From an uncultured Bacteroidia bacterium (GTDB lineage: Bacteria; Bacteroidota; Bacteroidia; JANWVE01), in the NCBI GenBank assembly GCA_938016205.1, contig CALLWV010000088.1:1-25524 (forward strand): a stretch of DNA of 25,524 nucleotides, given 5' to 3'. Within the stretch, counting starts at the first letter, position 1, and every line of letters begins with the position of its first letter. The translations under genes were made by a program, and so were the position numbers. Shown piece after piece: positions 1 to 15,502 of the stretch. The notes beneath the pieces are model-generated. The model did not search any database and was not told the DNA's origin. It saw nothing but the letters and a program-made list of their open reading frames with translations.

Positions 1-622
1 TTTTAATTCTTCTATATCCGCTGTATAAGGATAGTTTTTCATAATGCCATCTGGGTCTACAAAATTACTTTGTTCAAATAAAGACAACAGCTTTTCTAAC
101 CTTGTCTGATACTTGCCCTGAATACGTTTTACCTGTACAACATAACTATCATGCGTTAAACGCTCTACAAAACTACTCTTTTTAGGAATAATTTCTTTCG
201 TAAGTAAATCTTTGTAAATCCGTTCTGCCTTAAAACAAGCAGATTCTATTTCAGGAATGTTAAACCCAAGTATATAAATCGTAGTAATAGGTAAAGCCGT
301 ATTTTTACCTTCAATTATATCTTCTTTTTTGTACTGTTCAGCAAGATAATTTCTAAAACGCATTAAATCTACATATTCAAAGGCTTTTTGTACTTCAATC
401 AGAACTTTTTTATAGCCTTCTTCAGTTTTTACAGTAGCTACAAAATCCATTCGGAAGAGACGTGTGCCAACAAGTTCGTCAGAGTAGGTAAATTCTTGCG
501 GTTGTATAGTAAGGCTTTCTATTTCTTGTTCTGTAAGCGTGCTAATAAAGAATTTAGCTATTTTTTCGTTTTGCATCAAACGCTTAAAGACAAGGTCATA
601 GATAGGATTGGCAATAATCATG
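1..622 (-). CDS. PD-(D/E)XK nuclease family transposase-like protein (PDDEXK_2/Rpn-like). The start codon is at 622 and the C-terminus runs off the window edge.
   Basis: Reverse-strand translation from ATG (complement of 620-622) gives MIIANPIYDLVFKRLMQNEKIAKFFISTL...RMDFVATVKTEEGYKKVLIEVQKA.... I remember the NP(I/F)xDxxFKxLF...FLxxLL N-terminus and the (I/V)EVQKA motif as typical of the Bacteroidetes PD-(D/E)XK 'transposase-like' family. The ORF track misses it because no stop lies inside the window. A -7-like box TATTTTTG (complement of 626-633) lies 4 nt upstream of the ATG. Confidence 0.6.
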
Positions 623-742
623 GTACAAAAATAGGGAAAATATACAATTTTTTGATTTTTAACTTTTGATCACTATGAGATAAAGAGTTGTAGTATCTAA
701 ATTTTGATTGGTCAGGTCGGAAGTATTTTATAATTTCGTGGC

Positions 743-2980: not shown

Positions 2981-3010
2981 TTTGTTTTTGGGTAAATTTT
3001 CTTAACTTTG
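2981..3010 (+). promoter_or_regulatory. Candidate promoter (TTTG 2981-2984, 18-nt spacer, TAACTTTG 3003-3010) for the 3031 gene
   Basis: A TAnnTTTG -7 box sits 20 nt upstream of ATG 3031, with an upstream TTTG at near-consensus spacing. Confidence 0.35.
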
Positions 3011-3030: not shown

Positions 3031-3561
3031 ATGGAAAAATTTCTCGTACTGGTAGTAGTGTTGTTATTTATATACAATCTACTCAAACCCAATAAAAAAA
3101 AGCAAGGTAAAGCAACAGCAAATACTTTTCAGGATTTGCAGAAACTGCTTTCCAATATAGAACAAAATAAAACTGTCAGTACCAAAACAGCAAACAATAA
3201 TACACCCCAGAAGCAGAATACTGCATTAAAAACAGAAAGTTATACCACACTTGAAAAAACAGATATAGAGGTTGAAACATACGAAACCAACACGTATGAT
3301 GATGAAATTAGTCTGTCTGAGTATCTAGAAAGCAAAAAGAGAAGTAAAGGTTTTGAAAATTTAGAAGTGTCACAATTGTATACAAGTGATAGCATAGATA
3401 CGAATACATCTTTTGAAAAAGAAGATGCAAAATGGTTAAATCAGTCTTTGAAAGACAATGCTGACCATTCTGACAAACACACAAAAAAAGCTAAACTTAC
3501 TGCAAAAGACATCAAAAAAGCCTATATCACTAATCAGATTTTGGAAAGAAAATACATCTAA
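3031..3561 (+). CDS. Hypothetical membrane-anchored protein (N-terminal TM helix, K/N/T/E-rich low-complexity tail)
   Basis: 176-aa ORF. 'MEKFLVLVVVLLFIYNLL' is a single hydrophobic anchor, and the rest is polar and low-complexity. No family recognised. Confidence 0.45.
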   Translation: MEKFLVLVVVLLFIYNLLKPNKKKQGKATANTFQDLQKLLSNIEQNKTVSTKTANNNTPQKQNTALKTESYTTLEKTDIEVETYETNTYDDEISLSEYLESKKRSKGFENLEVSQLYTSDSIDTNTSFEKEDAKWLNQSLKDNADHSDKHTKKAKLTAKDIKKAYITNQILERKYI

Positions 3562-3601: not shown

Positions 3602-4822
3602 TTACTTATTTCCTAGTACAATTACCCAAAAGAAGCCTTCATTTTTTTGTTCAGGAATAGAATTATGCTCAGCTACGGGAACAATACCTATGCCTATTTG
3701 TTTTACATCAGGTTTGGTAATGTTCATTTGAGAAACTTCTTGTTTTAGCCATGCATCTAATACTTCGTTTGGATTTTTAGTACCTATGTAGATACACTCT
3801 ACGCACTTACCTTCATAACCTGCTTGTTTAGCACGTTTAGTAGCATCAGATTTGTTTACTCCTGCATCAGAAAAATAGTTTATAGTGCGCATATCCCATG
3901 CGTGCAATGCGGCTGCGCGGGAAAGTTCGGTACTGATATTAGCAGGGGCAGGACGTTTTTTATTCACTTCGGTAGCTAATGCATCAATTACAGATTTATG
4001 AGCGTTGAGTAGAGAATCAGCAAAAGTAATTTGTTCTGAAGTATAAGGTTCATAGAAAAATTTGAGTTTTTTAGTCTTAGGGTCTTTTTTCTTGGTTGTC
4101 AGCATGATAGGAGTCATTTTAAGTTCCCTTACTTTGCTATCATTTGGGAACATCTCTGAAGCCTGCGTAAGTAACTCTTGTGCTTTAAGATAGTTATTTA
4201 CCTGTGCATAATAACGGATAAGTTCTACAAAAACCTCGGCATTGTATCTGTCCTTAAACTTTGGTCTTTTACTTTTGAAATCCGCATATTGAGACTCTGC
4301 AATAGGTGTAAAACTATTTACATAATCTTTTTCTTTGTTGTTCAGCGCGCATTTACCTGCATAATAATACCCCATGCCATCAGGGTCTATTTTACCTGCT
4401 TGTAAAAAAATGGGCTTAGCTTCACTATATTTTTTCTCATTGTATAACGCCATTCCTTTACGAATAGTAATGTTACTAATAGTATCTAAAAAAGGACGGA
4501 ATTTTTTTATGTTCTTGTCCTTTGGAGAAGCAGAACGAGTAGCCGTCATGGCATCTTTGGTAGCTAACTCTACTGCGTTAGGGTATTTTTCCACTAATTT
4601 AGGGTCTTTTGAAAGTTGATAGTAAGCATCAGCACGATATAGCAATAATTTTACGCGTTCGCTACCTCCTGCTTTTTTCAGCACTTTTCCCACCATTTGC
4701 ACACATTCTTCATATTCAGCCTGTTCATAAGCCGCCATTGCTTGTTTTGGAGTAGGAGTTTGTGCTATACTTACAGCTAAACCAAACAATGAGATAACGA
4801 TAAAAGAAAATACTGTTTTCAT
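3602..4822 (-). CDS. Secreted hypothetical protein with TPR-like repeats
   Basis: 406 aa. The N-terminal signal peptide is MKTVFSFIVISLFGLAVSIAQ. Several helical repeat segments have the A/Y/L spacing typical of TPR, for example 'YRADAYYQLSKDP', 'YNEKKYSEAKPIFLQAGKIDP' and 'YYAQVNNYLKAQELLTQASEMFPND'. Confidence 0.5.
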   Translation of the reverse strand: MKTVFSFIVISLFGLAVSIAQTPTPKQAMAAYEQAEYEECVQMVGKVLKKAGGSERVKLLLYRADAYYQLSKDPKLVEKYPNAVELATKDAMTATRSASPKDKNIKKFRPFLDTISNITIRKGMALYNEKKYSEAKPIFLQAGKIDPDGMGYYYAGKCALNNKEKDYVNSFTPIAESQYADFKSKRPKFKDRYNAEVFVELIRYYAQVNNYLKAQELLTQASEMFPNDSKVRELKMTPIMLTTKKKDPKTKKLKFFYEPYTSEQITFADSLLNAHKSVIDALATEVNKKRPAPANISTELSRAAALHAWDMRTINYFSDAGVNKSDATKRAKQAGYEGKCVECIYIGTKNPNEVLDAWLKQEVSQMNITKPDVKQIGIGIVPVAEHNSIPEQKNEGFFWVIVLGNK

Positions 4823-4841: not shown

Positions 4842-4872
4842 CAAAATTACAACTATTCTTAAAAATTGCAAA
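4842..4872 (-). promoter_or_regulatory. Candidate promoter for the 3602-4822 gene (minus strand TTTG, 19 nt, TAATTTTG)
   Basis: On the minus strand, TAATTTTG is the complement of 4842-4849 and TTTG is the complement of 4869-4872, separated by exactly 19 nt. The -7 box lies 19 nt upstream of ATG 4822. Confidence 0.4.
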
Positions 4873-5024: not shown

Positions 5025-6806
5025 ATGTATTGGCAAACCGCAGGTGTATATTGTGGGATAGGATATATTCAAGTAATGCTTATACTTGGCATAGGAATAG
5101 GCATACTACGCATTTTACAGATAAAAATAGAAAGTATATTCAAACTTATCTTTTATGCTTTATGTACGGGCATATATGTATGGATATTAGTTACATCACT
5201 CATTTATACACAAGGTAAAACCATTTTATTAGGCAGTTTGCCCTTGATAATAGCTTTAACTTGGCAATTCAAATCTAATAAAGATATTTCTAAACAAATT
5301 GCTTCATATTTTTATTTCCACAACTCTTTTTTTAAGTTCATTGCAATAAGTTTAGGTATCTGGATTTGGACATCACTATTGAATATATATTGTATTTCAC
5401 TTAACGGTCAGCATTTATATTTGCCCCACTTTGATATTTTACACAGCATTGAGATTAGCCAAAATTTACAACAGAATGGCACAGAAACGTACTATTATTG
5501 GCAAAAAGGTTCAAATACCTTTCCATACCATTATGCAGAGATATGGTTGCATGCGGGTATACAAGCCTTATGGCATACTCAAAAAACATGGACTTGGCAA
5601 GGTATAGTTGTACCCTTATTACAATTTACGCTTGTTATAGGATTATTGAGTATAGCTGAGCATTATCAAAAAGAAGTAAACAGATACTGGATAAGTATTG
5701 CTTGCGGATTTTTGTTGTTTCAAGGCTGGTTAAATATCTCTCTACCTCATTTTGATGCTCATTTTGATTTTACACGGTACGTAAGCATGATAGGCGCTAC
5801 AAAATTTCTCGTAGTAGGAATAGTTTGTATTGTATATCTATTGAGTAACGATAAGGTAAAACACTGGACTATATTACTTTTGCCTATATTCTCTATTATT
5901 ACTTTACCTGCCGTTGTAACACTCATAGCTTTAACATGGATAAAAACTAAACAAAAACAATGTATACTCGGAATTGGACTTTTAATAATATGGATATTTG
6001 GATTTTATTTTATTACAGGAACGCACAATTCTTCTTTTTCTGATGTATTAGTATCTCCATCAAATAGAGATTTTCGGCAAAATCAAGCATATTCGCTTAT
6101 TTTAGCTATTATTTTTTATTTACCTACATTGTTCTGGGTACAAGAAAAGACTATTTTAATACAACTATTGGTAATTTTTGTAATAGGTTACGCATTATTT
6201 TTAGGAATTTATTGGTTGTATGATAGCTATCAATTTTTAGTTTTGTTTGGGATACCTTTTGCATGGGCGCATTCTTGGGTAGTGATAGTAAAAAATAAGA
6301 AAAAAATTATGACAACGTTTTTGTATGTAATTATAGCATTTTCATTGATACAAACACTTTTATACAAAAAAGATTTTCAGCGTACAGCAATAGACAATGC
6401 TTGGATAAATGAAATTTATACTTATTTAATTACAAAAAATGTTATACAACAAGGTGCGGCATTATGGTATTATGATATTAGACAATCGCATGTATTTTGT
6501 TGGAAGGAAAAAAACATTAAAATAACTTCATTATTAGCACAACCTACTTCTTTTAACTTTGATAAAATTACGCGAGAGTCTCTTTCTGATACACTTTCTA
6601 ACTACATGGTACAAAAAAATTTGCTTTTTCACCCTAAATCCAATAAAAAATTAGAAACACAAATATTCTCATTTTGTAAGCAGAATAAACTACATTTTTT
6701 AGTCTATCCGACAGAACTTTTATCTTTTGATGAATATCAAGCGGATATTTTATGTTATTTTGAGAGTAAGAAAGATAAGTTAAATTGTATAGTGTTTGAA
6801 CCTTAA
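5025..6806 (+). CDS. Polytopic integral membrane protein (at least 12 predicted TM helices) with a ~150-aa soluble C-terminal domain; function unknown
   Basis: 593-aa ORF dominated by hydrophobic W/Y/F-rich segments. No catalytic motif recognised. The true start could be an internal Met. Its stop overlaps the convergent M1 peptidase stop within a shared TTAA. Confidence 0.5.
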   Translation: MYWQTAGVYCGIGYIQVMLILGIGIGILRILQIKIESIFKLIFYALCTGIYVWILVTSLIYTQGKTILLGSLPLIIALTWQFKSNKDISKQIASYFYFHNSFFKFIAISLGIWIWTSLLNIYCISLNGQHLYLPHFDILHSIEISQNLQQNGTETYYYWQKGSNTFPYHYAEIWLHAGIQALWHTQKTWTWQGIVVPLLQFTLVIGLLSIAEHYQKEVNRYWISIACGFLLFQGWLNISLPHFDAHFDFTRYVSMIGATKFLVVGIVCIVYLLSNDKVKHWTILLLPIFSIITLPAVVTLIALTWIKTKQKQCILGIGLLIIWIFGFYFITGTHNSSFSDVLVSPSNRDFRQNQAYSLILAIIFYLPTLFWVQEKTILIQLLVIFVIGYALFLGIYWLYDSYQFLVLFGIPFAWAHSWVVIVKNKKKIMTTFLYVIIAFSLIQTLLYKKDFQRTAIDNAWINEIYTYLITKNVIQQGAALWYYDIRQSHVFCWKEKNIKITSLLAQPTSFNFDKITRESLSDTLSNYMVQKNLLFHPKSNKKLETQIFSFCKQNKLHFLVYPTELLSFDEYQADILCYFESKKDKLNCIVFEP

Positions 6807-9800
6807 AAGCATCTACCGATACCGATAATCCATCTGAATTGAAAGGGATTTTGTCCTTGCGGTACATAAGAAAGCCAAAATGGCATATCCAATCTCAATA
6901 CAAAAGGATTAGATTGATAGCCACGCGGAGGAGGTAAAGTAAACGCAATTCCTATTCCTGCATCTTGTAATATGCGTGTATTAGGCATGTTATTATACAC
7001 ATATGTACTATTAGCGATAATGTTTGTAATGTATCCTGCATCATAAAACAAATATGGATTCCATTTGATACGCCCGCGTAAACGTGAAGGTACTTTGCTG
7101 TGCCATCTCGTACGCAATAACTTTACAAAATCTAATTCTATGTTTGTGGCTAAACCTGTATTGCCTACCGTGATGAGATTATTATTTTCATCTAACACAA
7201 AATAACGAGCATAACCTCTTACATTTAGTCCTCCGCCAAGTTGAAGGTGTGCAGGTATTTTACCTTGATTTCTTACATACAAACTTTCAGGAAACATGTA
7301 TGCTCTATACCATTGATTATCAAACTCTTGTTCAGGATTAGCACCATAAAGATATAAATTACTTTCAGCAATGTTATTCATTCCAATTTGTCCAAATAAA
7401 CGCCATTTAATATCAAATTTTTTGCGATTATGTTGTAGTAAAATCTGCGTATTGAAGTAACTATTATTATTTTGAGCAACTAATCCAGGTACTACAAGTT
7501 CGGCATTAGTTCGGATAAGTCCCCAAGAAGTCAGTTTTTGTTTTTCTGTACCAATGCGAATAGATGAGTTAATTGTATTATTTGACCAAAGATTAGGGTT
7601 AGGTAAAAACTCGTTATCTATATCCGTAGGTCTAACCATAATTTTGTAGTAAGCAAATACTTTTGTATAATTTTTACTGCCTACTACCGCGGCAAAAGTT
7701 TTACGCAAACCTTCTTTAATCTGCCATAATCCATCACGTATTTCTGCATGATGAAAATGATAAATTTGTTTATCTAATTTACGTATGGGTGCAGAATAAC
7801 TTGCTCTAAAAGAAACAAGGTTAATTTTATTTTTGTAAGTACTATCTGTTATTCCGTAGCGATAAAACCTGCCTAACGTAGTATTTGCCCATATTGCGGA
7901 TTCAAAAAGATGTGTATTAAAATAATTACTTTTAATTTGAATACCTGTTTGAACTCCTGTTAAACCGTTATACCATATATCAGGTCTGTAATAGGTACGT
8001 GTATGTTTCCAATCAGGATAGTCAGGATAAACACCACTTTCAAATTTAATGATGTTTTTGTGTTTAAGTTGATTATCGCGTAAATCTATATCAGCGAGTA
8101 GATATTCAGGGTCTATGACAAGGTTATCTAACTGAGCAGGGAGTTCAAATTCAAAGGTATAAGTAGGATTTAAGCGTTTTCCCCAACCTCGCCATATAGG
8201 TAATACTCGGGTATTGGGATATTTGAAAGGTTTTACAAAATCTCTGTTTGGAATGTATGCGTAAAGAGTGTCTCCTTTTTTTGTAGTGAACATCAAATCT
8301 AATGGCATTTCCATGTCTGCTTTGCGTACTAATGTAACTTTTACCTTGTTATTATTCATTTTTTTTACAGACTGAATGCCGTAATCTATTTGTTTTTTTG
8401 TAGTTATCCACTCGTCAAAGAACCAATTAAGGTCTATTTTAGTAGCATCTATCATAGCTTGGCGAAAATCTTCTTCGTAAGGGTGTGCTATACACCATTT
8501 TTTGAAGTACGCTTGCATGCCTTGCCAAAAAAGTTTATCTCCGAGTACATATTTAAGGTTAAATAACATAGTAGCTGTTTTAGTGTATACTAATGTATGC
8601 CCTCTATCTTCACCGTTTCTGCGAAGTGAACCATCAAAGTCATCAGCATGGGTATTCAGTTGGATATCATAGCCGTTTTTTGCTCTCCATAAGTAGCTAT
8701 AATACGCATTAGAATAAATAGCTTCTACTTCTTCATAGCGTTTTTCTACATAAGGAATGTATTTTAGGCGAATATCGTATTTACCATGTAAAATTTGCAT
8801 CGCAATAATTTCCATAAATTGAGTAAAACCTTCGTCTAACATAGGGCGATAAGTTTCATTAGAACCAATCATACCAAAAAACCAATTATGACCTACTTCA
8901 TGGGCAAAAAGGCTTTTATATGTAGGCGACGAACCTCCGCACAAGGTAAGCATAGGATACTCCATGCCATCACGGGCGTCTGCTACTACCATTTTGGGAT
9001 AAGCATATTTTCCTACCATAACAGAATATGTCTGAATGATATTTGCAGTAAACTCTGCGGCATCTTGCCAACGTGGAGCATTAGGTTGCATAGCTAAGGC
9101 TATCACTTGTATACCATTCCAATTGGCTTCACCAATGCGATAGGAAGGGTCTGCGGTAAAGCCAAAGTCATGTACATTAGTGGCATAGTATATCCAAGTT
9201 TTCTTTTTACCCTGCTCGGGGGCTATGAGACTAATAGGCGTTTGTGTAGCAGATTTGAAATTTTTTATATCTAATGCGGCACGCAAATCAGGGGGTAGTA
9301 CTTGATTTTTATTTTGTAAAGTACCAGTGGCCTCTACAATGTAATGGTGTGGTAAAGTTAAGTTAACTAAAAAACTACCAAAATCGCCGTAGAATTCGCG
9401 GTTAAGGTGCTGGTCTAATGCCCATTTGAATTTACGGTCATACACAGCTATACGCGGATACCAATGTACAGCATCATAATGTTTTACACCATCATGTATA
9501 AACATTTTCATTCTACGGGGCTGTGAACCTATATCAAAATAGGTCTTGAACTGTATGCTAAAAGTAACCTTGCTATGAGGTAGAATAGGTTTATCCAAAA
9601 ATACTTTGAGAATAGTACCTTGTAATTCTGTATTTTGTAAGTTTCCTTCGTATTTAAGAGAGAGAACTTCAATATTCTTGTCTTGTTGTTCATATTTACC
9701 GTATTTAGGTTTAATATGTGTGCTATTTATGGTTAGGTTATGTAAGTCAGAGTGCGGATTAAACGCATTTTGATATAGATTAAAATACGCTACTTTAAGA

Positions 9801-10057
9801 GTATCAGGGGAATTATTAGTATAAATAAGAGTTTCTGAACCTTGAATAATATCAGTTTGGTCATCTAATTCGGCATCAATGGTATAGGCTACATCTTGTT
9901 GCCAATAACTTGGATAAGGGGGTTTGTTTTTCCAATAATAAGGATTTTTTTGGCTGTCGTATTTATGAGCAGGATTAGTGTTATCAAACTGTGCGTGAGT
10001 ATAACGGCACAGCCCCAAAAGCAAGATAAAAAAGATAAAGTGCTTCATGAAGCACAA
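6803..10057 (-). CDS. Secreted M1-family zinc metallopeptidase (aminopeptidase N-like) with a long C-terminal extension
   Basis: 1084 aa. The signal peptide is (MCF)MKHFIFFILLLGLC. 'FAHEVGHNWFFGMIGSNETYRPMLDEGF' gives HEXXH followed by E exactly 18 residues later, the gluzincin M1 signature. The upstream 'DGMEYPMLT' is the GxMEN exopeptidase motif. The C-terminal ~450 aa are unassigned and end in ...FRWIIGIGRCF. Confidence 0.8.
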   Translation of the reverse strand: MCFMKHFIFFILLLGLCRYTHAQFDNTNPAHKYDSQKNPYYWKNKPPYPSYWQQDVAYTIDAELDDQTDIIQGSETLIYTNNSPDTLKVAYFNLYQNAFNPHSDLHNLTINSTHIKPKYGKYEQQDKNIEVLSLKYEGNLQNTELQGTILKVFLDKPILPHSKVTFSIQFKTYFDIGSQPRRMKMFIHDGVKHYDAVHWYPRIAVYDRKFKWALDQHLNREFYGDFGSFLVNLTLPHHYIVEATGTLQNKNQVLPPDLRAALDIKNFKSATQTPISLIAPEQGKKKTWIYYATNVHDFGFTADPSYRIGEANWNGIQVIALAMQPNAPRWQDAAEFTANIIQTYSVMVGKYAYPKMVVADARDGMEYPMLTLCGGSSPTYKSLFAHEVGHNWFFGMIGSNETYRPMLDEGFTQFMEIIAMQILHGKYDIRLKYIPYVEKRYEEVEAIYSNAYYSYLWRAKNGYDIQLNTHADDFDGSLRRNGEDRGHTLVYTKTATMLFNLKYVLGDKLFWQGMQAYFKKWCIAHPYEEDFRQAMIDATKIDLNWFFDEWITTKKQIDYGIQSVKKMNNNKVKVTLVRKADMEMPLDLMFTTKKGDTLYAYIPNRDFVKPFKYPNTRVLPIWRGWGKRLNPTYTFEFELPAQLDNLVIDPEYLLADIDLRDNQLKHKNIIKFESGVYPDYPDWKHTRTYYRPDIWYNGLTGVQTGIQIKSNYFNTHLFESAIWANTTLGRFYRYGITDSTYKNKINLVSFRASYSAPIRKLDKQIYHFHHAEIRDGLWQIKEGLRKTFAAVVGSKNYTKVFAYYKIMVRPTDIDNEFLPNPNLWSNNTINSSIRIGTEKQKLTSWGLIRTNAELVVPGLVAQNNNSYFNTQILLQHNRKKFDIKWRLFGQIGMNNIAESNLYLYGANPEQEFDNQWYRAYMFPESLYVRNQGKIPAHLQLGGGLNVRGYARYFVLDENNNLITVGNTGLATNIELDFVKLLRTRWHSKVPSRLRGRIKWNPYLFYDAGYITNIIANSTYVYNNMPNTRILQDAGIGIAFTLPPPRGYQSNPFVLRLDMPFWLSYVPQGQNPFQFRWIIGIGRCF

Positions 10058-10134
10058 AAATAAGTAGAAAGAACTTTATTTTGGTTTAATAATTCTAAAA
10101 ACTGTCTGAGTCTTTGTTCCAAAGTTAGCATATA

Positions 10135-11340
10135 CTACATACACACTCTTTTGATAAAATTCAGCCATTCTTCTTGTGTTGTTTGGGGTAGCTTTGGGGA
10201 TAAAGTTAATCTATCAGGAATTTTGATATTAGGAGGAAATTTATTATCATTGATATAAGCTTGTTTAAGTTCTTTCCAATTCTCACCTAACCCGCAAGGT
10301 ACTTTATAGAGCAAATTAGAAGATATATCAAACCATTGAAGTTTATCCCACATTTTACCAAAATCTCTTGGAATTTCTGAAATTCTGTTCTGATGCAATA
10401 AACAAGAAACAAGTTTTGTCCATGTTTTGCCAAAATCATCAGGGAGTTTTACAATTCCATTAGCGTACAAATGAATTTCTCTTAAATCTGTACAATGCGC
10501 AAGCCATGCATTAGGAATAGTAGTTAGATTATTTGCAGAAAACACAAAGTATTTGAGTTTTGTCCAACTTTTAGCGAAGTTAGTATCTACTTGTGCTAGT
10601 TTAGCGTTATGTGCGGAGAAAAAAGTAAGTTCTTTCCAACTTGCACCAAAATCTTTGGGTAAAGTAAGTATATTTTTACGAGGTGCGTTATCATTGAGCG
10701 TAAAAGATTTTAAGTTTACCCAAGTACTTCCAAAACCTGTCTGTATGGAGTCTATGCGATTATCATTACAGGTAAAACTAGTTATTTTTGTCCATGTAGC
10801 TCCCAACCACTGCGGTAGATAATAGATGTACGTTTTTTTGATAGTAAATTCTTGTAACTCTGTCCAGTTTGCACCAAAATTATTAGGAATGTCGCGTAAA
10901 GTGCAGTTTTCAATATGAAATTTTTTAAGGTTTTTCCAGTTCTGTCCGAAGCCTTCGGGAAGAGAATAAATCAAAGTATAATCAAAAGTAAATTCTTCTA
11001 ATTGTGTCCAGTTTTCGCCAAATTTTTTAGGTAGACGTGTGATACGGTTGTTAAGCATTTTAAACTTTTTAAGATTTTTCCACATAGCGCCAAAATCTTC
11101 GGGTAGTTTACTAACAATGTTATTCGTAATATCTAACGTTTCTAAGTTAACACATTCTTTAAGCACAGGATACAACTTATAGGTAAATAAAGAGTCATTA
11201 ACTTCATAAAAAAACTGTAAGTGATAAACTTGTTTTGGGTCAATATCGGGGTCGCGGAGGTCGTAGTAGATTTTATCTTTCTGAGCAAAAAGGATAAAAG
11301 GAACGAAAATAAAAAATTGTATTATGATTTTCTGAATCAT
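10135..11340 (-). CDS. Secreted leucine-rich-repeat-like protein made of about eleven ~24-aa 'FGxxWxxLxxF' repeats
   Basis: 401 aa with signal peptide MIQKIIIQFFIFVPFILFAQ. The tandem repeats are visible in the translation (FGENWTQLEEFTF..., FGQNWKNLKKFHI..., FGANWTELQEFTI..., FGSTWVNLKSFTL..., FGASWKELTFFSA..., FGKTWTKLVSCLL..., FGKMWDKLQWFDI...), each followed by an N/LP-containing LRR-like half. Confidence 0.7.
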   Translation of the reverse strand: MIQKIIIQFFIFVPFILFAQKDKIYYDLRDPDIDPKQVYHLQFFYEVNDSLFTYKLYPVLKECVNLETLDITNNIVSKLPEDFGAMWKNLKKFKMLNNRITRLPKKFGENWTQLEEFTFDYTLIYSLPEGFGQNWKNLKKFHIENCTLRDIPNNFGANWTELQEFTIKKTYIYYLPQWLGATWTKITSFTCNDNRIDSIQTGFGSTWVNLKSFTLNDNAPRKNILTLPKDFGASWKELTFFSAHNAKLAQVDTNFAKSWTKLKYFVFSANNLTTIPNAWLAHCTDLREIHLYANGIVKLPDDFGKTWTKLVSCLLHQNRISEIPRDFGKMWDKLQWFDISSNLLYKVPCGLGENWKELKQAYINDNKFPPNIKIPDRLTLSPKLPQTTQEEWLNFIKRVCM

Positions 11341-11428
11341 ATCGCAAAGTTACAATAAAATGGTTCAAAAGAAGTATAAGTATTTAGGGTAAGTTAAAAC
11401 GCTTATTAGGTAGTTTATGCATAAAATC

Positions 11429-11459
11429 TTGTTAATCCACAAAATCTATCTTAACTTTG
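11429..11459 (+). promoter_or_regulatory. Candidate promoter for the M4 protease (TTG 11429-11431, 20 nt, TAACTTTG 11452-11459). The -7 box ends 4 nt before the ATG.
   Basis: Consensus -33/-7 spacing. The predicted transcription start coincides with the start codon at 11464, implying a leaderless or near-leaderless mRNA. Confidence 0.35.
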
Positions 11460-11463
11460 TGAG

Positions 11464-14400
11464 ATGAAAAAGTTAATCATTGTTTTTCTAATTTGTTTTT
11501 TATCTTGGTTTTCTATACAAGCACAAAGTTTTTATGGATTAGATGCTGAAAAAAAGATACCTAACACAAGTATTGTACATTACACTACACAACGTACACC
11601 TGCCTACATACAGGTACGTCCTGGATATAATATTTCACAACAAAATAGCATAGAATGGTTGAAAGATGCACTTAATGCTAATTCAAGATGTAGTTTTAGT
11701 CTTATTAGAAGTATTCAAGATGAATTAGGATATACTCATGAACGGTATCAACAATATTATGATGGCTTCCCCGTAGAAACTGGTATCTATATTTTGCACT
11801 TCAAAAATGGACTTTTACAGAGTGCTAACGGCGTTTTTTATGATAGTCTGCAAAGTTCATATTCGGTAAATATCAACGAAAATACAGCTCTACAAAAAGC
11901 ACTAGAATACATAGGTGCAGATAAATATATGTGGCAAATTCCTGAATTAGAACAACATTTCAAAGTAGAACAACGCAATCCTGATGCTACGTATTATCCC
12001 AAAGGACAGTTGGTGTATGCACCTAAAAATCATGTGTTCAAAGCTGAAAACTTTTATTTAGCCTATAAATTTGACATTTATGCACATCAGCCCCTTGCTC
12101 GCAAAAATGTATATGTAGATGCACGCACAGGGGAAGTTATTTTAACCCAGGATTTAATTCATACTATTGATTCCATAGCAGTTGCTCATACTAAATACAG
12201 TGGTGTACAAACTATGAAAACCAGTTTTATCAGTACAAATTTATTTCATCTTAAAGAAACCTCTCGTTGTGGTATAGAAACCTATAATTTACAAAACACG
12301 ACAAATTATGGCTCCGCGGTAGACTTTGTAGATACGGATAATGTTTGGAATAATGTTAATGCCCAACAAGATGAAGCGGCTACAGACGCACACTGGGGTG
12401 CAGAAATTACGTATGATTATTACAAGAACATACATAATCGTTTGAGTTATAATGGTGCTGATGCGCCTTTGTACAGTTATGTACATTATGGAACAAGCTA
12501 CTTAAATGCTTTTTGGGACGGCTGGCGTATGACGTATGGGGACGGTAGTGGTTCTTTCAGTGCTTTAACCTGTATAGATGTAGTCGCTCATGAACTTACG
12601 CACGGTGTTACAGGAAATAGTGCAGGTTTAATTTACTATGCAGAGTCTGGGGCTTTGAATGAGTCTTTCAGTGATATTTTTGGCAAATGCGTTGAAAAAG
12701 CCTATCGCCCAAGTAATTTCAGCTGGATAATTGGTAAAGATATGCACTCTTTCGGTACAGGCTTACGCAATATGAGTAACCCTAATGCTAACGGTAATCC
12801 TGATACTTATTATGGTACATACTGGTATTTTGGTTCGGGAGATAACGCAGGCGTACATACAAATAGTGGCGTTCAAAATTATTGGTTTTACCTATTATGT
12901 GAAGGAGGAAGCGGTGTTAATGATATAGGAAATACTTTTACTGTAAGTGCTATCGGTTTTAATAAAGCAGAGAGAATTGCATACCGTAATTTGAATGTGT
13001 ATCTAACCCCAAGTTCTAACTACGCCGAAGCACGTTTGTATTCTTTAATAGCCGCAGGAGATTTGTATGGCTATTGTAGTGCAGAATACGCAAGTGTGGC
13101 TAATGCGTGGTATGCTGTGGGAATTGGAAATGCCTATTTACCTGGTGTAGAAGCTGATTTTGAAGCTACTAATCAGAATTTTTGTTATGTACCTGTAAGT
13201 GTTCAGTTCAAAGATAAAAGTAATAATGCTTTTGTTTATAATTGGAACTTTGGGAATAGTACGACCAGCACAGCCGATAATCCTGTTGCAAATTATACGC
13301 AACCAGGTAGTTACAATGTACAACTTATCGTGGACGGCGGCTGTGGCAAAGATACTACTATCAAAACGAATTATATTCAGATTAACACTTTGGCTAATCC
13401 CACAGCAAATAATGTAGGTATCTGTCAAGGTGCAAGCGCTACAATTACAGCTAATCCTAATGGAAGTGGAGAGATATATTGGTACAACAGCATTACTAAT
13501 ACTAATCCACTATTTGTAGGAAATACATTTAATACACCATTGCTTATTTCAAATACTACCTATTACATTGCAGAAGAGGTAAAAAATCCTATACAAACAT
13601 TAGGTGCAGTAGATACTAATTTTGCTTTGGTTTCTAATACAGTGTCTCCGAACTATTACTTAATTTTTGATGTGTATAAAGATATGGTATTAGACAGTGT
13701 AACCGTATATTCCACACAGGCAGGGGACAGAACCATAGAACTACAAGATAAAAATGGCAATATCATAACTACTAAAACCGTGAATTTAGGTGTTGGTAAA
13801 CAACAGGTTTATCTTGGATTTGCTATTATGACGGGTTCAGATTATAGACTTGGCTTAGCTACAAGTTCAATGGGCAGACTGTTAAGAAATTACAATGGTA
13901 TTCCTTATCCTTATACCATTTCAGGATTAGCAAGCATCAAAAAATCCAATGTAAGTAATAATTATTTTTTCTTTTACAACTGGAAAGTAAGAGAAAGAAA
14001 TTGTACCAGTCCTCGTGTACCTGTGCAAGTAACGGTTTCTGTAAAACCTTCTACTCCTGTAATTATTCCGTCAGGAAGTGGATTAGCCGCTGTTGCTACT
14101 CCTGCTACCAGTTATCAGTGGTATTTGGCAGGTAATCCTATATCAGGTGCAACTAACAATACCTATATGCCCACTGTTACAGGTAACTACACTGTAATTG
14201 CCTATAATAATGGTTGTGCATCTAACACATCAGCAAATTATTATTATGTAGCTTCTTCTATATCTACTCAAAATATTGATTTGCCACAGTTTTATCTGTA
14301 TCCTAATCCTGCACAAGAAGAGATACATATTCATATAACAGATTACAAGGTAAAACAAGGTCATATATTTGATATGCAAGGTAAAGTCGCTCAAGAATTT

Positions 14401-14505
14401 ATTGTAAATCAAGCTGTTACAATGTTAAATGTAGGTAATTTACCCAAAGGAGTATATTTTGTAAAAATATCAGGGTATAAAACTGAAAAGTTCGTAAAAG
14501 AATAA
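11464..14505 (+). CDS. Secreted M4 (thermolysin-family) zinc metalloprotease with PKD domain and T9SS (Por) C-terminal sorting domain
   Basis: 1013 aa with signal peptide MKKLIIVFLICFLSWFSIQAQ. 'DVVAHELTHGVTGNSAGLIYYAESGALNESFSDIFG' is almost identical to the thermolysin active site (VVAHELTHAVT...GAINEAISDIFG). The HELTH codons are at 12589-12603. A PKD-like segment is 'NWNFGNSTTSTADNPVANYTQPGSYNVQLIVDGGCGKDT'. The C-terminus 'LYPNPAQEEIHIHI...GVYFVKISGYKTEKFVKE' fits the type IX secretion C-terminal domain. Confidence 0.85.
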   Translation: MKKLIIVFLICFLSWFSIQAQSFYGLDAEKKIPNTSIVHYTTQRTPAYIQVRPGYNISQQNSIEWLKDALNANSRCSFSLIRSIQDELGYTHERYQQYYDGFPVETGIYILHFKNGLLQSANGVFYDSLQSSYSVNINENTALQKALEYIGADKYMWQIPELEQHFKVEQRNPDATYYPKGQLVYAPKNHVFKAENFYLAYKFDIYAHQPLARKNVYVDARTGEVILTQDLIHTIDSIAVAHTKYSGVQTMKTSFISTNLFHLKETSRCGIETYNLQNTTNYGSAVDFVDTDNVWNNVNAQQDEAATDAHWGAEITYDYYKNIHNRLSYNGADAPLYSYVHYGTSYLNAFWDGWRMTYGDGSGSFSALTCIDVVAHELTHGVTGNSAGLIYYAESGALNESFSDIFGKCVEKAYRPSNFSWIIGKDMHSFGTGLRNMSNPNANGNPDTYYGTYWYFGSGDNAGVHTNSGVQNYWFYLLCEGGSGVNDIGNTFTVSAIGFNKAERIAYRNLNVYLTPSSNYAEARLYSLIAAGDLYGYCSAEYASVANAWYAVGIGNAYLPGVEADFEATNQNFCYVPVSVQFKDKSNNAFVYNWNFGNSTTSTADNPVANYTQPGSYNVQLIVDGGCGKDTTIKTNYIQINTLANPTANNVGICQGASATITANPNGSGEIYWYNSITNTNPLFVGNTFNTPLLISNTTYYIAEEVKNPIQTLGAVDTNFALVSNTVSPNYYLIFDVYKDMVLDSVTVYSTQAGDRTIELQDKNGNIITTKTVNLGVGKQQVYLGFAIMTGSDYRLGLATSSMGRLLRNYNGIPYPYTISGLASIKKSNVSNNYFFFYNWKVRERNCTSPRVPVQVTVSVKPSTPVIIPSGSGLAAVATPATSYQWYLAGNPISGATNNTYMPTVTGNYTVIAYNNGCASNTSANYYYVASSISTQNIDLPQFYLYPNPAQEEIHIHITDYKVKQGHIFDMQGKVAQEFIVNQAVTMLNVGNLPKGVYFVKISGYKTEKFVKE

Positions 14506-14635: not shown

Positions 14636-15502
14636 GTGTGTATGAAAGCAATCGTAAAAAAAGTAGAAAAACTACCCCACCCGCCTTCAGCGTCAGGAAT
14701 TGAGTATGTAAATGGTTTGTATTACATTATTGGTGATGATGCTAATGCCCTTTTTGTATTAAGCGAAGACTTGAAAGTACAAAAAACTATTCCATTTGTG
14801 CGAGGTAGAGAGGTAAAAGAGCATATCCCGAAAAAAGAAAAAACAGATTTTGAATGTATGACTTTTCTGTATGTAGAGGAAGTACCCCATATTTTAGTAA
14901 TGGGTTCAGGAAGTAAGCCCCAACGTAAGATAGCTTTTTTATACAATATGATTACAGAAGAGATGCAAAAATTAGAATATAATGGCTTTTACGATAGAAT
15001 AGAAAAAGATACCCATTTTACACTAAACACTGAACTGAATGTAGAGGCACTGTGTGCTACACAAGATTATATTTATCTTTTTCAACGTGGGAATATTGCT
15101 GATAAAAACACTTTTTTACGTTTTCCTATTCAAAATATACATAAACCCAATGAATACGAAGTTTTTAACACTAAATTAGATGGTATACAACAAGGTAAAG
15201 CAGGTTTTTCAGGGGCTTGCTATGTATTAGAATGGAACAGTATTTTATTTACAGCTTCGGTAGAAATAACTAAAAATGCTTATGATGATGGAGAAGTATT
15301 AGGAAGTACAGCAGGACTTATCCAAAATCATGAAGTAAAGGCAAACACCGTAATTACCTACTCTGACGGCAAACCTTACGTTGCCAAAATTGAGTCTATC
15401 ACGATTAAAAAGATATTGAAAGCGAATACTTTGCTCGCTGTGGCAGTAACAGACGCCGATGGTAAAGAATCTGAAATAGCAGAATTAGAAATCATAATAT
15501 AA
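14636..15502 (+). CDS. Hypothetical protein immediately upstream of the vault-protein homolog, possibly a beta-propeller (phytase-like/SdiA-regulated-like) fold
   Basis: 288 aa. The start may be ATG 14642 (MKAIVKK...). 'SASGIEYVNGLYYIIGDDANALFVLSEDLKVQKTIPF' loosely recalls the E-SGL-tyd...LfavsDe...ld.dGkv repeat of YjiK/SdiA-regulated propellers. No signal peptide. It lies 72 nt upstream of the MVP homolog on the same strand. A -7-like box TATATTTG at 14600-14607 sits upstream. Confidence 0.45.
   Translation: MCMKAIVKKVEKLPHPPSASGIEYVNGLYYIIGDDANALFVLSEDLKVQKTIPFVRGREVKEHIPKKEKTDFECMTFLYVEEVPHILVMGSGSKPQRKIAFLYNMITEEMQKLEYNGFYDRIEKDTHFTLNTELNVEALCATQDYIYLFQRGNIADKNTFLRFPIQNIHKPNEYEVFNTKLDGIQQGKAGFSGACYVLEWNSILFTASVEITKNAYDDGEVLGSTAGLIQNHEVKANTVITYSDGKPYVAKIESITIKKILKANTLLAVAVTDADGKESEIAELEIII

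What the first reader, a model, noticed from the sequence alone, without database searches (positions are those of the whole stretch)
11338..11466. Divergent gene pair whose -7 promoter boxes each sit exactly 4 nt before the start codon, suggesting leaderless mRNAs
Both the LRR gene (minus) and the M4 protease gene (plus) have the identical Bacteroidetes -7 box TAACTTTG followed by 4 nt and then ATG (TAACTTTGcgatATG on the minus strand, TAACTTTGtgagATG on the plus strand). The transcription start would then fall on or at the A of the ATG. The PD-(D/E)XK gene at the left edge shows the same geometry (TATTTTTGtaccATG, complement of 620-633). Three identical spacings in one window are unlikely to be chance. 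They point to frequent leaderless translation initiation in this organism, which would be consistent with the weak Shine-Dalgarno usage of Bacteroidetes. Both divergent genes encode signal-peptide proteins, so the start-codon assignments are well anchored.
Basis: seen in the sequence. Interest (0 to 1): 0.5.

Follow-up and report, generated by a model that had tools for sequence, protein, structure and literature searches.

The report
Promoters abutting start codons: leaderless genes
Several genes in this uncultured Bacteroidia genome have their promoter box exactly four bases before the ATG, so their mRNAs probably start at the start codon; this layout, rare in studied Bacteroidota, looks common in this little-sampled clade.

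Summary
TAACTTTG-N4-ATG precedes both the LRR gene (minus strand) and the M4 protease gene (plus strand), and TATTTTTG-N4-ATG precedes the left-edge gene. The pattern occurs 6 times in the window against 0.75 expected. A fourth gene, an M1 peptidase, has N6.

Published mapping of transcription start sites in Flavobacterium places the box at -12 to -5, with the start 4-5 nt downstream. N4 therefore puts +1 on the A of the ATG.

The geometry is under selection. Five M4 orthologs at 69-80% identity keep N4 while the free letters change: four have a perfect box and one has a single mismatch. The LRR orthologs keep N4, or N5 in one case.

The window belongs to an isolated Bacteroidia clade. In about 220 kb from this clade, 29 of 109 gene families have a box 3-7 nt before the ATG, with a sharp peak at 4, and 27 have a box 8-60 nt upstream. 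In other Bacteroidota loci the counts are 9 and 68 among 308 genes (p=6e-7). That comparison group matches the published 4-13% leaderless rate.

Leaderless mRNAs from -7 promoters are a known minority class in Bacteroidota. The apparent novelty is their high frequency here. Nothing has been tested experimentally; start sites must still be mapped.

The parts
11452..11459 (+). -7 promoter box TAACTTTG of the M4 protease gene (predicted T-12 to G-5)
   Evidence: It is the only box with at most one mismatch on this strand in the intergenic region. TA, TT, G and the ATG are invariant across the six aligned M4 genes (the window plus five orthologs).
11429..11431 (+). TTG, a candidate -33 element, 20 nt upstream of the M4 -7 box
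   Evidence: Read. A TTG at 19-20 nt is enriched upstream of both leaderless-type and leadered boxes (0.20 and 0.34, against 0.05 for other boxes).
11460..11463 (+). 4-nt spacer (tgag) between the box and the ATG
   Evidence: Its length is constant and its sequence varies among orthologs: tgag, tatt, tatt, tgct, tgta, cgta.
11464..14505 (+). M4 (thermolysin-family) protease gene with signal peptide and T9SS C-terminal domain. The predicted transcription start is the A at 11464.
   Evidence: TSS position inferred from PMC6847099.
11345..11352 (-). -7 promoter box TAACTTTG of the LRR gene
   Evidence: Orthologs carry TAGGTTTG-N4 (L073), TAATTTTG-N4 (L076) and TAATTTTG-N5 (L075).
10135..11340 (-). 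Leucine-rich-repeat protein gene with signal peptide. ATG at 11340-11338; the predicted transcription start is the A at 11340.
626..633 (-). -7 box TATTTTTG of the left-edge gene
   Evidence: A homolog in L075 (N-terminus MIIANPVYDVVF...) has TATTTTTG-N5-ATG.
1..621 (-). Left-edge gene, which runs off the window. ATG at 621-619, 4 nt after the box. Weak YhgA/Transposase_31-like hit.
10055..10062 (-). -7 box TATTTTTG of the M1 peptidase gene, 6 nt before its ATG (leader of 1-2 nt predicted)
   Evidence: N6 is also found in the L073 ortholog.
6803..10048 (-). M1-family peptidase gene with signal peptide. ATG at 10048-10046.
3003..3010 (+). For contrast: a leadered promoter, TAACTTTG 20 nt before the ATG at 3031
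   Evidence: N20 is also found in L073, and N19 in L085.
4842..4849 (-). For contrast: a leadered promoter, TAATTTTG 19 nt before the ATG at 4822
24400..24407 (+). For contrast: a leadered promoter, TATCTTTG 17 nt before the ATG at 24425

Best explanation
The two TAACTTTG boxes are back-to-back sigma-A (Bacteroidota -33/-7 type) promoters for the divergent LRR and M4 protease genes.

Each box occupies -12 to -5, so RNA polymerase starts 5 nt after the final G. That base is the A of the ATG, and the mRNA would begin 5'-AUG with no untranslated leader. Translation would then have to start by direct recognition of the 5'-terminal AUG by a ribosome carrying initiator tRNA, without any upstream A-rich or Shine-Dalgarno signal.

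The left-edge gene (N4) uses the same layout. The M1 peptidase gene (N6) would have a leader of 1-2 nt.

This is not a local oddity. In the isolated Bacteroidia clade that the window belongs to, about a quarter of gene families, and about half of those with a recognisable -7 box, have this geometry.

What is shown and what is inferred:
- Shown: the motif, the spacing, the enrichment, the ortholog conservation and the shared promoter context.
- Inferred from published TSS maps in other Bacteroidota: the position of +1.
- Inferred from established knowledge of leaderless mRNAs: the translation mechanism.
For: 1. The sequence is exact, with 6 hits against 0.75 expected.

2. Baez 2019 (PMC6847099) gives the box as T-12 A-11 .. 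T-8 T-7 T-6 G-5, with 4 or 5 nt between box and TSS. Guerin 2021 (PMC9723704) places the box at -12 to -5.

3. M4 orthologs keep N4 while the free letters change:
   - window: TAACTTTGtgagATG
   - L073 (80% identity): TATATTTGtattATG
   - L075 (74%): TACCTTTGtattATG
   - L076 (70%): TAACTTTGtgctATG
   - L088 (69%): TAATTTTGtgtaATG
   - L002 (71%): TATTTTCGcgtaATG
   The invariant columns are TA, TT, G, ATG and an A-tract at about -22 to -20. Intergenic length ranges from 52 to 763 bp. More distant M4 homologs (37-47% identity) show box-like motifs 24-36 nt upstream by eye, only one matching strictly, and the 50-54% paralogs have no strict box within 60 nt.

4. LRR orthologs show N4, N4 and N5. 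The M1 ortholog shows N6.

5. Clade sample: 29 leaderless-type, 27 leadered and 53 no-box families out of 109. Among internal ATGs used as a control, 2 of 803 had a box at N3-7. By family, the spacings are N4:16, N5:6, N6:4, N7:2. A scan that does not depend on choosing gene starts counted 24 boxes followed at k=4 by an ATG opening at least 80 codons, against 0-5 at most other offsets.

6. Other Bacteroidota loci gave 9 leaderless-type, 68 leadered and 231 no-box genes. Fisher p=6e-7 for leaderless-type against leadered, and 1e-11 against all genes.

7. Leaderless-type boxes share the extended context of leadered promoter boxes, and intragenic boxes lack it: a pyrimidine at -4, an A-rich stretch at -22 to -18, a T-rich stretch at -17 to -15, few G at -10/-9, and a TTG 19-20 nt upstream.

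8. The starts are anchored by an in-frame TAA inside each box and by signal peptides beginning at the Met.

9. No other consensus box, no sigma-70-like site and no Rfam family lies in the 123-bp intergenic region.
Against: - No transcription start has been mapped in this organism or any relative. Everything rests on sequence statistics and on TSS geometry measured in Flavobacterium.
- The LRR promoter has no TTG at the canonical 19-21 nt spacing; its nearest TTTG is 13 nt upstream. A one-mismatch box (TTCTTTTG, lacking A-11) lies 25 nt upstream of its ATG and could give a leadered transcript.
- The M4 spacer ends in G, not the usual pyrimidine, at -1.
- The clade sample is about 220 kb from roughly five genomes, chosen around two marker genes. 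It is not a whole genome. One housekeeping-rich contig (L077) had 3 leaderless-type families (1 among the pipeline-called starts) of 17.
- Tests of 5'-end structure and of -1 base identity did not separate leaderless-type genes from leadered ones.
Confidence: 0.8

Rival explanations
1. The boxes are real promoter-like sequences, but most transcription of these genes starts elsewhere, from a weaker upstream promoter or by read-through. The functional mRNAs would then have ordinary leaders, and the box next to the ATG would be a minor or conditional promoter.
For: A one-mismatch box lies 25 nt upstream of the LRR ATG. Published Bacteroidota transcriptomes are 87-96% leadered. Many genes in the clade (53 of 109 families) have no strict box, so non-consensus promoters must exist.
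Against: On the M4 side the intergenic region has no other box with at most one mismatch. Selection keeps the exact N4 spacing in orthologs even though intergenic length varies from 52 to 763 bp. A minor promoter would not produce a sharp genome-wide peak at N4. The region 15 nt upstream of leaderless-type starts lacks the A-richness of leadered genes: A fraction 0.20 against 0.34.
Confidence: 0.12
2. The start codons are mis-assigned. Translation would begin at a downstream codon, and the stretch after the box would be a normal leader.
For: Automatic pipelines did choose other starts for some orthologs: PGAP starts the SKYG108 M4 gene 43 codons downstream, and JGI uses the second ATG for the L076 LRR gene.
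Against: The predicted N-termini are canonical signal peptides starting at the Met (MKKLIIVFLICFLSWFSIQAQ, MIQKIIIQFFIFVPFILFAQ). These are needed for exported T9SS and LRR proteins and are conserved in type across orthologs. The PGAP model lacks a signal peptide and so is implausible. No nearby downstream in-frame ATG exists.
Confidence: 0.03
3. Chance or compositional artefact. In an AT-rich genome, T-rich octamers can fall next to ATG codons without any function.
For: Three of the six window hits are non-functional intragenic matches. Strict TANNTTTG boxes are common: 69 in the window.
Against: The window has 6 hits against 0.75 expected, and no shuffle reached 6. Among internal ATGs, 2 of 803 had a box at N3-7, compared with 29 of 109 gene families. 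Orthologs conserve the spacing. The peak sits at one specific offset.
Confidence: 0.02
4. The conserved octamer next to the ATG acts as something other than a promoter, for example a binding site for a regulator or an RNA-level translation signal in a longer transcript.
For: A 17-nt direct repeat (11413-11447) and a mirror symmetry of the two promoter/start regions (34-nt arms, 74% complementary) exist in the intergenic region.
Against: The octamer is the phylum's -7 consensus. Other genes in the same loci have it 15-35 nt upstream, as expected for promoters. The leaderless-type copies share the upstream promoter context of those boxes. The symmetry simply follows from two identical boxes, each followed by ATGA.
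Confidence: 0.03

Closest known systems
Leaderless mRNAs of studied Bacteroidota (Flavobacterium johnsoniae, F. psychrophilum, Bacteroides thetaiotaomicron)
   Same: The promoter type is the same (sigma-A, TAnnTTTG at -12 to -5, TSS 4-5 nt downstream), and so is the consequence when the ATG sits at that distance. Such transcripts were seen experimentally. About 13% of F. johnsoniae transcripts have leaders of 10 nt or less (PMC6847099). The share is 5.5% in F. psychrophilum (PMC9723704) and about 3.7% below 10 nt in B. thetaiotaomicron (PMC7366714). My comparison loci from other Bacteroidota give 9 of 77 box-associated starts, which agrees.
   Different: Here the class is not a small minority. 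It covers 29 of 56 box-associated gene families (52%) and 27% of all families sampled. The cases here are predicted, not mapped.
GeneMarkS-2 'group C' bacteria (Actinobacteria, Deinococcus-Thermus), with frequent leaderless transcription
   Same: A promoter box sits at a fixed short distance from the first gene of many operons. The predicted share of leaderless operons in group C is 25-50% (PMC6028130), similar to the estimate here.
   Different: Group C is defined with a Pribnow (-10, TATAAT-like) box 6-8 nt from the start. Here the box is the Bacteroidota TAnnTTTG, 4 nt from the start. In that study 90% of Bacteroidetes/Chlorobi genomes were classed as group B (leadered, A-rich non-SD site). 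An earlier survey found leaderless genes in only 1 of 37 Bacteroidetes/Chlorobi genomes, while noting that it could detect only Pribnow-type boxes (PMC3160421).
Leadered, SD-less, A-rich ('Kozak-like') initiation typical of Bacteroidota
   Same: It occurs in the same organisms and the same window. At least five genes in the window have the box 17-34 nt upstream.
   Different: Leaderless-type starts have the promoter where the A-rich signal would be. The A fraction at -15 to -1 is 0.20, against 0.34-0.35. They cannot use upstream mRNA signals.

Membership tests
Bacteroidota sigma-A (sigma-ABfr type) -33/-7 promoter | -7 element TAnnTTTG | tested here: met
   Exact matches at 11452-11459 (+), 11352-11345 (-), 633-626 (-) and 10062-10055 (-).
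Bacteroidota sigma-A (sigma-ABfr type) -33/-7 promoter | No G at the two free positions (TAHHTTTG, Baez 2019) | tested here: met
   The free positions are AC, AC, TT and TT in the window's four boxes. G frequency is 0.08 at both positions in the 39 clade leaderless-type boxes, against 0.15-0.16 in other boxes. One ortholog is an exception (TAGGTTTG, L073 LRR).
Bacteroidota sigma-A (sigma-ABfr type) -33/-7 promoter | -33 element TTG/TTTG about 19-21 nt upstream of the -7 box, or AT-rich tracts near -18 and -28 | tested here: inconclusive
   The M4 promoter has a TTG at a 20-nt spacer. The LRR and left-edge promoters do not (13 and 11 nt). At set level, TTG at 19-20 nt is enriched (0.20 against 0.05), and the A-rich and T-rich tracts are present. 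The literature itself calls the -33 element weak.
Bacteroidota sigma-A (sigma-ABfr type) -33/-7 promoter | Transcription starts 4-5 nt downstream of the box | not testable with these tools
   This needs 5'-end mapping. The geometry is taken from PMC6847099 and PMC9723704.
Leaderless mRNA | Primary 5' end at, or within a few nt of, the start codon | not testable with these tools
   Only predicted from the box-to-ATG distance: N4 gives +1 at the A, and N6 gives a 1-2 nt leader.
Leaderless mRNA | AUG start codon that is the true translation start | tested here: met
   All are ATG. An in-frame TAA lies 12 nt upstream of both divergent genes. Signal peptides start at the Met and are conserved in type among orthologs. 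Protein-level proof is not available.
Leaderless mRNA | Promoter element at a fixed short distance from start codons, in excess over other distances | tested here: met
   There is a sharp peak at N4 in the clade: 16 of 29 families, and 24 boxes at k=4 against 0-5 at most other offsets. Window: 6 hits against 0.75 expected.
Leaderless mRNA | Spacing maintained by selection in orthologs | tested here: met
   All five M4 orthologs keep N4, one of them with a one-mismatch box. LRR orthologs show N4, N4 and N5. The M1 ortholog shows N6.
Genome with frequent leaderless transcription (GeneMarkS-2 group C-like) | A large fraction (about 25-50%) of first-in-operon genes have the promoter box at leaderless distance | tested here: inconclusive
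   This is met on the sample: 29 of 56 box-associated families and 29 of 109 of all families. Other Bacteroidota give 9 of 77 and 9 of 308. The sample is only about 220 kb from roughly five related genomes; whole genomes were not available to the tools.
Genome with frequent leaderless transcription (GeneMarkS-2 group C-like) | Pribnow-type (TATAAT-like) -10 box about 6-8 nt from the start | tested here: not met
   The box is the Bacteroidota TAnnTTTG at 4 nt, and no sigma-70-type site lies in the intergenic region. It works like group C but does not match that definition.

The most novel reading that the evidence does not exclude
The window belongs to a deep, sparsely sampled Bacteroidia clade in which about half of the recognisable sigma-A promoters fire directly on the start codon. 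The clade's isolation shows in two markers: PurB is 88-97% identical within the clade and at most 69% to everything else, and GldM is 73-92% within and at most 35% outside. This would be the first leaderless-rich lineage described in Bacteroidota/FCB, a phylum otherwise taken as the model for leadered, SD-independent initiation. It implies a lineage-specific shift in how ribosomes are recruited, and systematic start-codon errors in current annotations of these genomes.
Probability: 0.6. Interest if true: 0.6.

Novelty: new variant of a known kind. Interest (0 to 1): 0.45.

Why it matters
Bacteroidota are the textbook case of bacteria that translate without Shine-Dalgarno pairing although their ribosomes keep the anti-SD sequence. 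Published work concluded that leaderless mRNAs are only a minor part of that story.

A clade in which leaderless starts are roughly as common as leadered ones would offer a natural contrast inside the phylum. One could ask what changes in the ribosome or the initiation factors allow or accompany the shift.

There is also a practical consequence. Gene callers tuned to upstream signals mis-place starts in these genomes. The NCBI model of the SKYG108 M4 protease lacks its first 43 residues, including the signal peptide. That error would propagate into predictions of secretion and localisation.

For the window itself, the result fixes the starts and promoters of four exported or peptidase genes. 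It also shows that the 123-bp divergent intergenic region is all promoter, with no untranslated region.

Tried and rejected
- Exact-sequence look-up of the window's M4 protein found nothing. The MAG is not in that collection.
- The metagenome scan with M4 found no relative above 47% identity. Close relatives came only from the protein search followed by contig look-ups.
- The closest species-level genome (L002, SKYG108) shares no synteny with the window apart from M4. It could not serve for gene-by-gene comparison; L073 could.
- A pyrimidine at -1, as expected for a TSS context, is not diagnostic. It is equally frequent before leadered and no-box genes: 87% against 84%, p=1.
- 5'-end folding: the first 45 nt of leaderless-type genes are less structured than interior windows (-3.06 against -4.16 kcal/mol, p=0.011). 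Leadered genes trend the same way, and the two classes do not differ (p=0.98).
- The -33 TTG is present for M4 but absent for the LRR gene and the left-edge gene. It is informative only at set level.
- Rfam found nothing in the window. The sigma-70 scan matched the shuffled expectation, with no site in the intergenic region.
- Supplementary tables of PMC6847099 and PMC9723704 were opened to extract individual leaderless promoters. The relevant sheets were truncated or not searchable.
- Searches for the MAG accessions in the literature found nothing. Environment and finer taxonomy remain unknown.
- The 8-bp inverted repeat TTAACTTT/AAAGTTAA around the M4 ATG, and the hairpin centred on the M1 ATG, are not conserved in L073 (by eye, from the sequences). 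They were dropped as regulatory candidates.


Full report
**Observation**

- Plus strand: TAACTTTG (11452-11459), tgag, then the ATG (11464) of a 1013-aa protein.
- Minus strand: TAACTTTG (11352-11345), cgat, then the ATG (11340-11338) of a 401-aa protein.
- Left edge, minus strand: TATTTTTG (633-626), tacc, then an ATG (621-619).

Pfam confirms the M4 protease: Peptidase_M4 and M4_C, an FTP propeptide, PKD and a T9SS Por_Secre_tail. It also confirms the LRR protein. The left-edge gene has only a sub-threshold YhgA/Transposase_31 hit.

TANNTTTG-N4-ATG occurs 6 times in the window against 0.75 expected, and none of 100 shuffles reached 6. The other three hits are intragenic and open ORFs of 2, 6 and 2 codons.

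In both divergent genes the first three letters of the box form an in-frame TAA 12 nt upstream of the ATG, with no start codon in between. The proteins begin with typical signal peptides, so the starts are secure. One more case was missed: the M1 peptidase gene has TATTTTTG-N6-ATG (box 10062-10055, ATG 10048).

Other genes in the window have the same box 17-34 nt upstream: N17, N19, N20, N30 and N34. The window therefore already shows two classes of spacing.

**What the spacing means**

In F. johnsoniae the -7 element is T-12 A-11 n n T-8 T-7 T-6 G-5, and bona fide promoters have 4 or 5 nt between the element and the transcription start (PMC6847099). In F. psychrophilum the box lies at -12 to -5 (PMC9723704). 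With N4, +1 is the A of the ATG, so the transcript would have no leader.

Such transcripts are known in the phylum but rare:
- 13% with leaders of 10 nt or less in F. johnsoniae;
- 5.5% in F. psychrophilum;
- about 3.7% below 10 nt in B. thetaiotaomicron.

Genome surveys class about 90% of Bacteroidetes genomes as leadered with an A-rich non-SD site (PMC6028130). An earlier survey found leaderless genes in only 1 of 37 Bacteroidetes/Chlorobi genomes, while noting that its method sees only Pribnow-type boxes (PMC3160421).

**Origin of the window**

The window is part of contig CALIZB010000066.1 of a MAG named 'uncultured Bacteroidia bacterium N1_Bin_MAXBIN__037_1'. The clade is isolated:
- GldM relatives are 92, 92, 90, 89 and 73% identical, then the best outside hits drop to 35% or less (Cytophagales-type).
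- PurB relatives are 88-97% identical (12 sequences), then drop to 69%.

**Conservation of the geometry**

Contigs carrying M4 orthologs were retrieved. Every one has a -7 box exactly 4 nt before the ATG, while the two free box positions and the spacer letters differ:

| Locus | M4 identity | Sequence |
|---|---|---|
| window | - | TAACTTTGtgagATG |
| L073 | 80% | TATATTTGtattATG |
| L075 | 74% | TACCTTTGtattATG |
| L076 | 70% | TAACTTTGtgctATG |
| L088 | 69% | TAATTTTGtgtaATG |
| L002 | 71% | TATTTTCGcgtaATG (one mismatch) |

In the alignment the invariant columns are TA, TT, G, the ATG and an A-tract near -22 to -20. The rest is not conserved. Intergenic length ranges from 52 to 763 bp.

The LRR orthologs behave likewise:
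- L073: TAGGTTTG-N4.
- L076: TAATTTTG-N4. The pipeline had called the second of two ATGs.
- L075: TAATTTTG-N5.

The M1 ortholog in L073 keeps N6. More distant M4 homologs (37-47% identity) show box-like motifs 24-36 nt upstream by eye, only one of them a strict match. The 50-54% paralogs inside the clade have no strict box within 60 nt. The leaderless layout therefore belongs to this orthologous group, not to M4 genes in general.

**Frequency in the clade**

I used about 220 kb of clade DNA: the window, L002, L073, L075-L077, L079 and L081-L085. I selected non-overlapping ORFs, clustered them into 109 families and classed each start.
- 29 families have a strict box 3-7 nt before an ATG.
- 27 have a box 8-60 nt upstream.
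- 53 have none.
- Control: 2 of 803 internal ATGs had a box at N3-7.

By family the spacings are N3:1, N4:16, N5:6, N6:4 and N7:2. A scan that does not depend on choosing gene starts gives the same picture. 24 boxes are followed at offset 4 by an ATG opening at least 80 codons, 9 at offset 5, 6 at offset 6 and 4 at offset 7, against 0-5 at most other offsets.

The same procedure on 27 loci (398 kb) from other named Bacteroidota gives 9 leaderless-type, 68 leadered and 231 no-box genes. That is 12% of box-associated starts, in line with the literature. Fisher p=6e-7 for leaderless-type against leadered, and 1e-11 against all genes.

Non-Bacteroidota loci show no signal.

**Are these boxes promoters?**

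Leaderless-type boxes share with leadered boxes a context that the other 389, mostly intragenic, boxes lack:

| Feature | Leaderless-type | Leadered | Other boxes |
|---|---|---|---|
| Pyrimidine at -4 | 0.88 | 0.91 | 0.52 |
| G at -10/-9 | 0.08 | 0 | 0.15-0.16 |
| TTG 19-20 nt upstream | 0.20 | 0.34 | 0.05 |

Both promoter classes also have an A-rich stretch at -22 to -18 and a T-rich stretch at -17 to -15.

In the 123-bp region between the LRR and M4 genes there is no other consensus box. The only one-mismatch candidate that could give a leadered transcript is TTCTTTTG, 25 nt upstream of the LRR ATG, and it lacks the near-invariant A-11. There is no sigma-70-like site and no Rfam family.

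**Mechanism**

Two back-to-back sigma-A promoters, 100 bp apart, drive the divergent genes. Each would start transcription on the A of its ATG. The 5'-terminal AUG would then be recognised directly by the ribosome with initiator tRNA, as established for leaderless mRNAs in other bacteria; that step is inferred from general knowledge.

Shown here: the motif, the spacing, the excess, the conservation and the promoter context. Inferred: the +1 position, from TSS maps in Flavobacterium, and the mode of translation.

**Limits**

- No TSS data exist for this clade.
- The sample is small and centred on two marker genes.
- One housekeeping-rich contig (L077) had 3 leaderless-type families (1 among the pipeline-called starts) of 17.
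- The -33 element is absent for two of the three genes.
- Tests on 5' structure and on the -1 base did not discriminate.

**Comparison and novelty**

The individual sites are new members of a known minority class: leaderless transcripts from -7 promoters in Bacteroidota. What appears new is the frequency in this clade, which is comparable to the 25-50% predicted for GeneMarkS-2 group C bacteria but uses the Bacteroidota box at 4 nt rather than a Pribnow box at 6-8 nt. I found no paper describing a leaderless-rich Bacteroidota lineage in the searchable library. That is not proof that none exists.

There is a practical corollary. Annotation pipelines mis-place starts here: the NCBI model of the SKYG108 M4 protease begins 43 codons too late and lacks the signal peptide.

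**Verdict**

Interest is moderate (0.45). The decisive test is 5'-end mapping together with a whole-genome spacing count.

Noticed in passing
window 15575-18061 (+), with 14642-15502 (+): An 828-aa protein with major-vault-protein domains (MVP_shoulder 1.2e-32, Vault_3) lies just downstream of a DUF6929/DUF6910 gene. It is a bacterial vault-like protein. In the syntenic relative L073 the same gene is split into two ORFs of 466 and 341 aa.
   Followed up: no
window 18199-23360 (-): This is a gldK-L-M-N (T9SS/gliding motor) operon. GldM is unusually long (617 aa against about 530) and gives no hit to the usual N-terminal GldM domain. Its nearest relatives outside the clade are only 34% identical. 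The only strict -7 box lies 161 nt upstream of gldK, and 159 nt in L073, suggesting a conserved long leader.
   Followed up: partly
L002 9290-9450 and 9800-9905; also L079, L083, L088: GC-rich repeats containing GGGCGTGTCC / GACACGCCCAAAA stand out in an otherwise 35-39% GC background in the SKYG108-type genomes. They form inverted pairs around AT-rich repeated units and often end immediately upstream of promoters. They may be a MITE- or REP-like element family.
   Followed up: no
L002 10001 (P0124); L076 9906-9909: Public gene models mis-place leaderless-type starts. The NCBI model of the SKYG108 M4 protease is 972 aa, starts 43 codons downstream and has no signal peptide. The JGI/Logan model of the L076 LRR gene uses the second of two adjacent ATGs.
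   Followed up: yes
window 11413-11447 (+): A 17-nt direct repeat, GTTTATGCATAAAATCT / GTTAATCCACAAAATCT with 18-nt period, lies at about -51 to -17 of the predicted M4 transcription start. It could be a regulator binding site or simply phased A-tracts.
   Followed up: no
L077 2306-2345 (-), upstream of rpsA: The ribosomal protein S1 gene of a clade member has a leadered promoter (TACTTTTG, N36-38). Its leader is GGAG-rich ('aaaggagaaaaggagaac') just before the ATG. This Shine-Dalgarno-like sequence is unusual for Bacteroidota.
   Followed up: no
L004 (MAG Bacteroidetes bacterium SZAS-5, JAFDYI010000014.1): Outside the clade, this locus alone has 4 leaderless-type starts against 5 leadered ones. 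It may mark a second lineage with many leaderless genes.
   Followed up: no
39 leaderless-type starts in clade loci (list): The base after the ATG (+4) is A in 31 of 39 leaderless-type starts, against 51 of 106 other starts (p=7e-4; orthologs are not independent). This could reflect a preference in the initially transcribed or translated sequence.
   Followed up: partly
L075 19955-19969 and L076 15102-15116: A conserved TATCTTTG-N4-ATG for an M61 peptidase gene lies only 3 nt after the stop of the upstream same-strand gene. The promoter box is therefore embedded in the end of the preceding coding sequence.
   Followed up: partly
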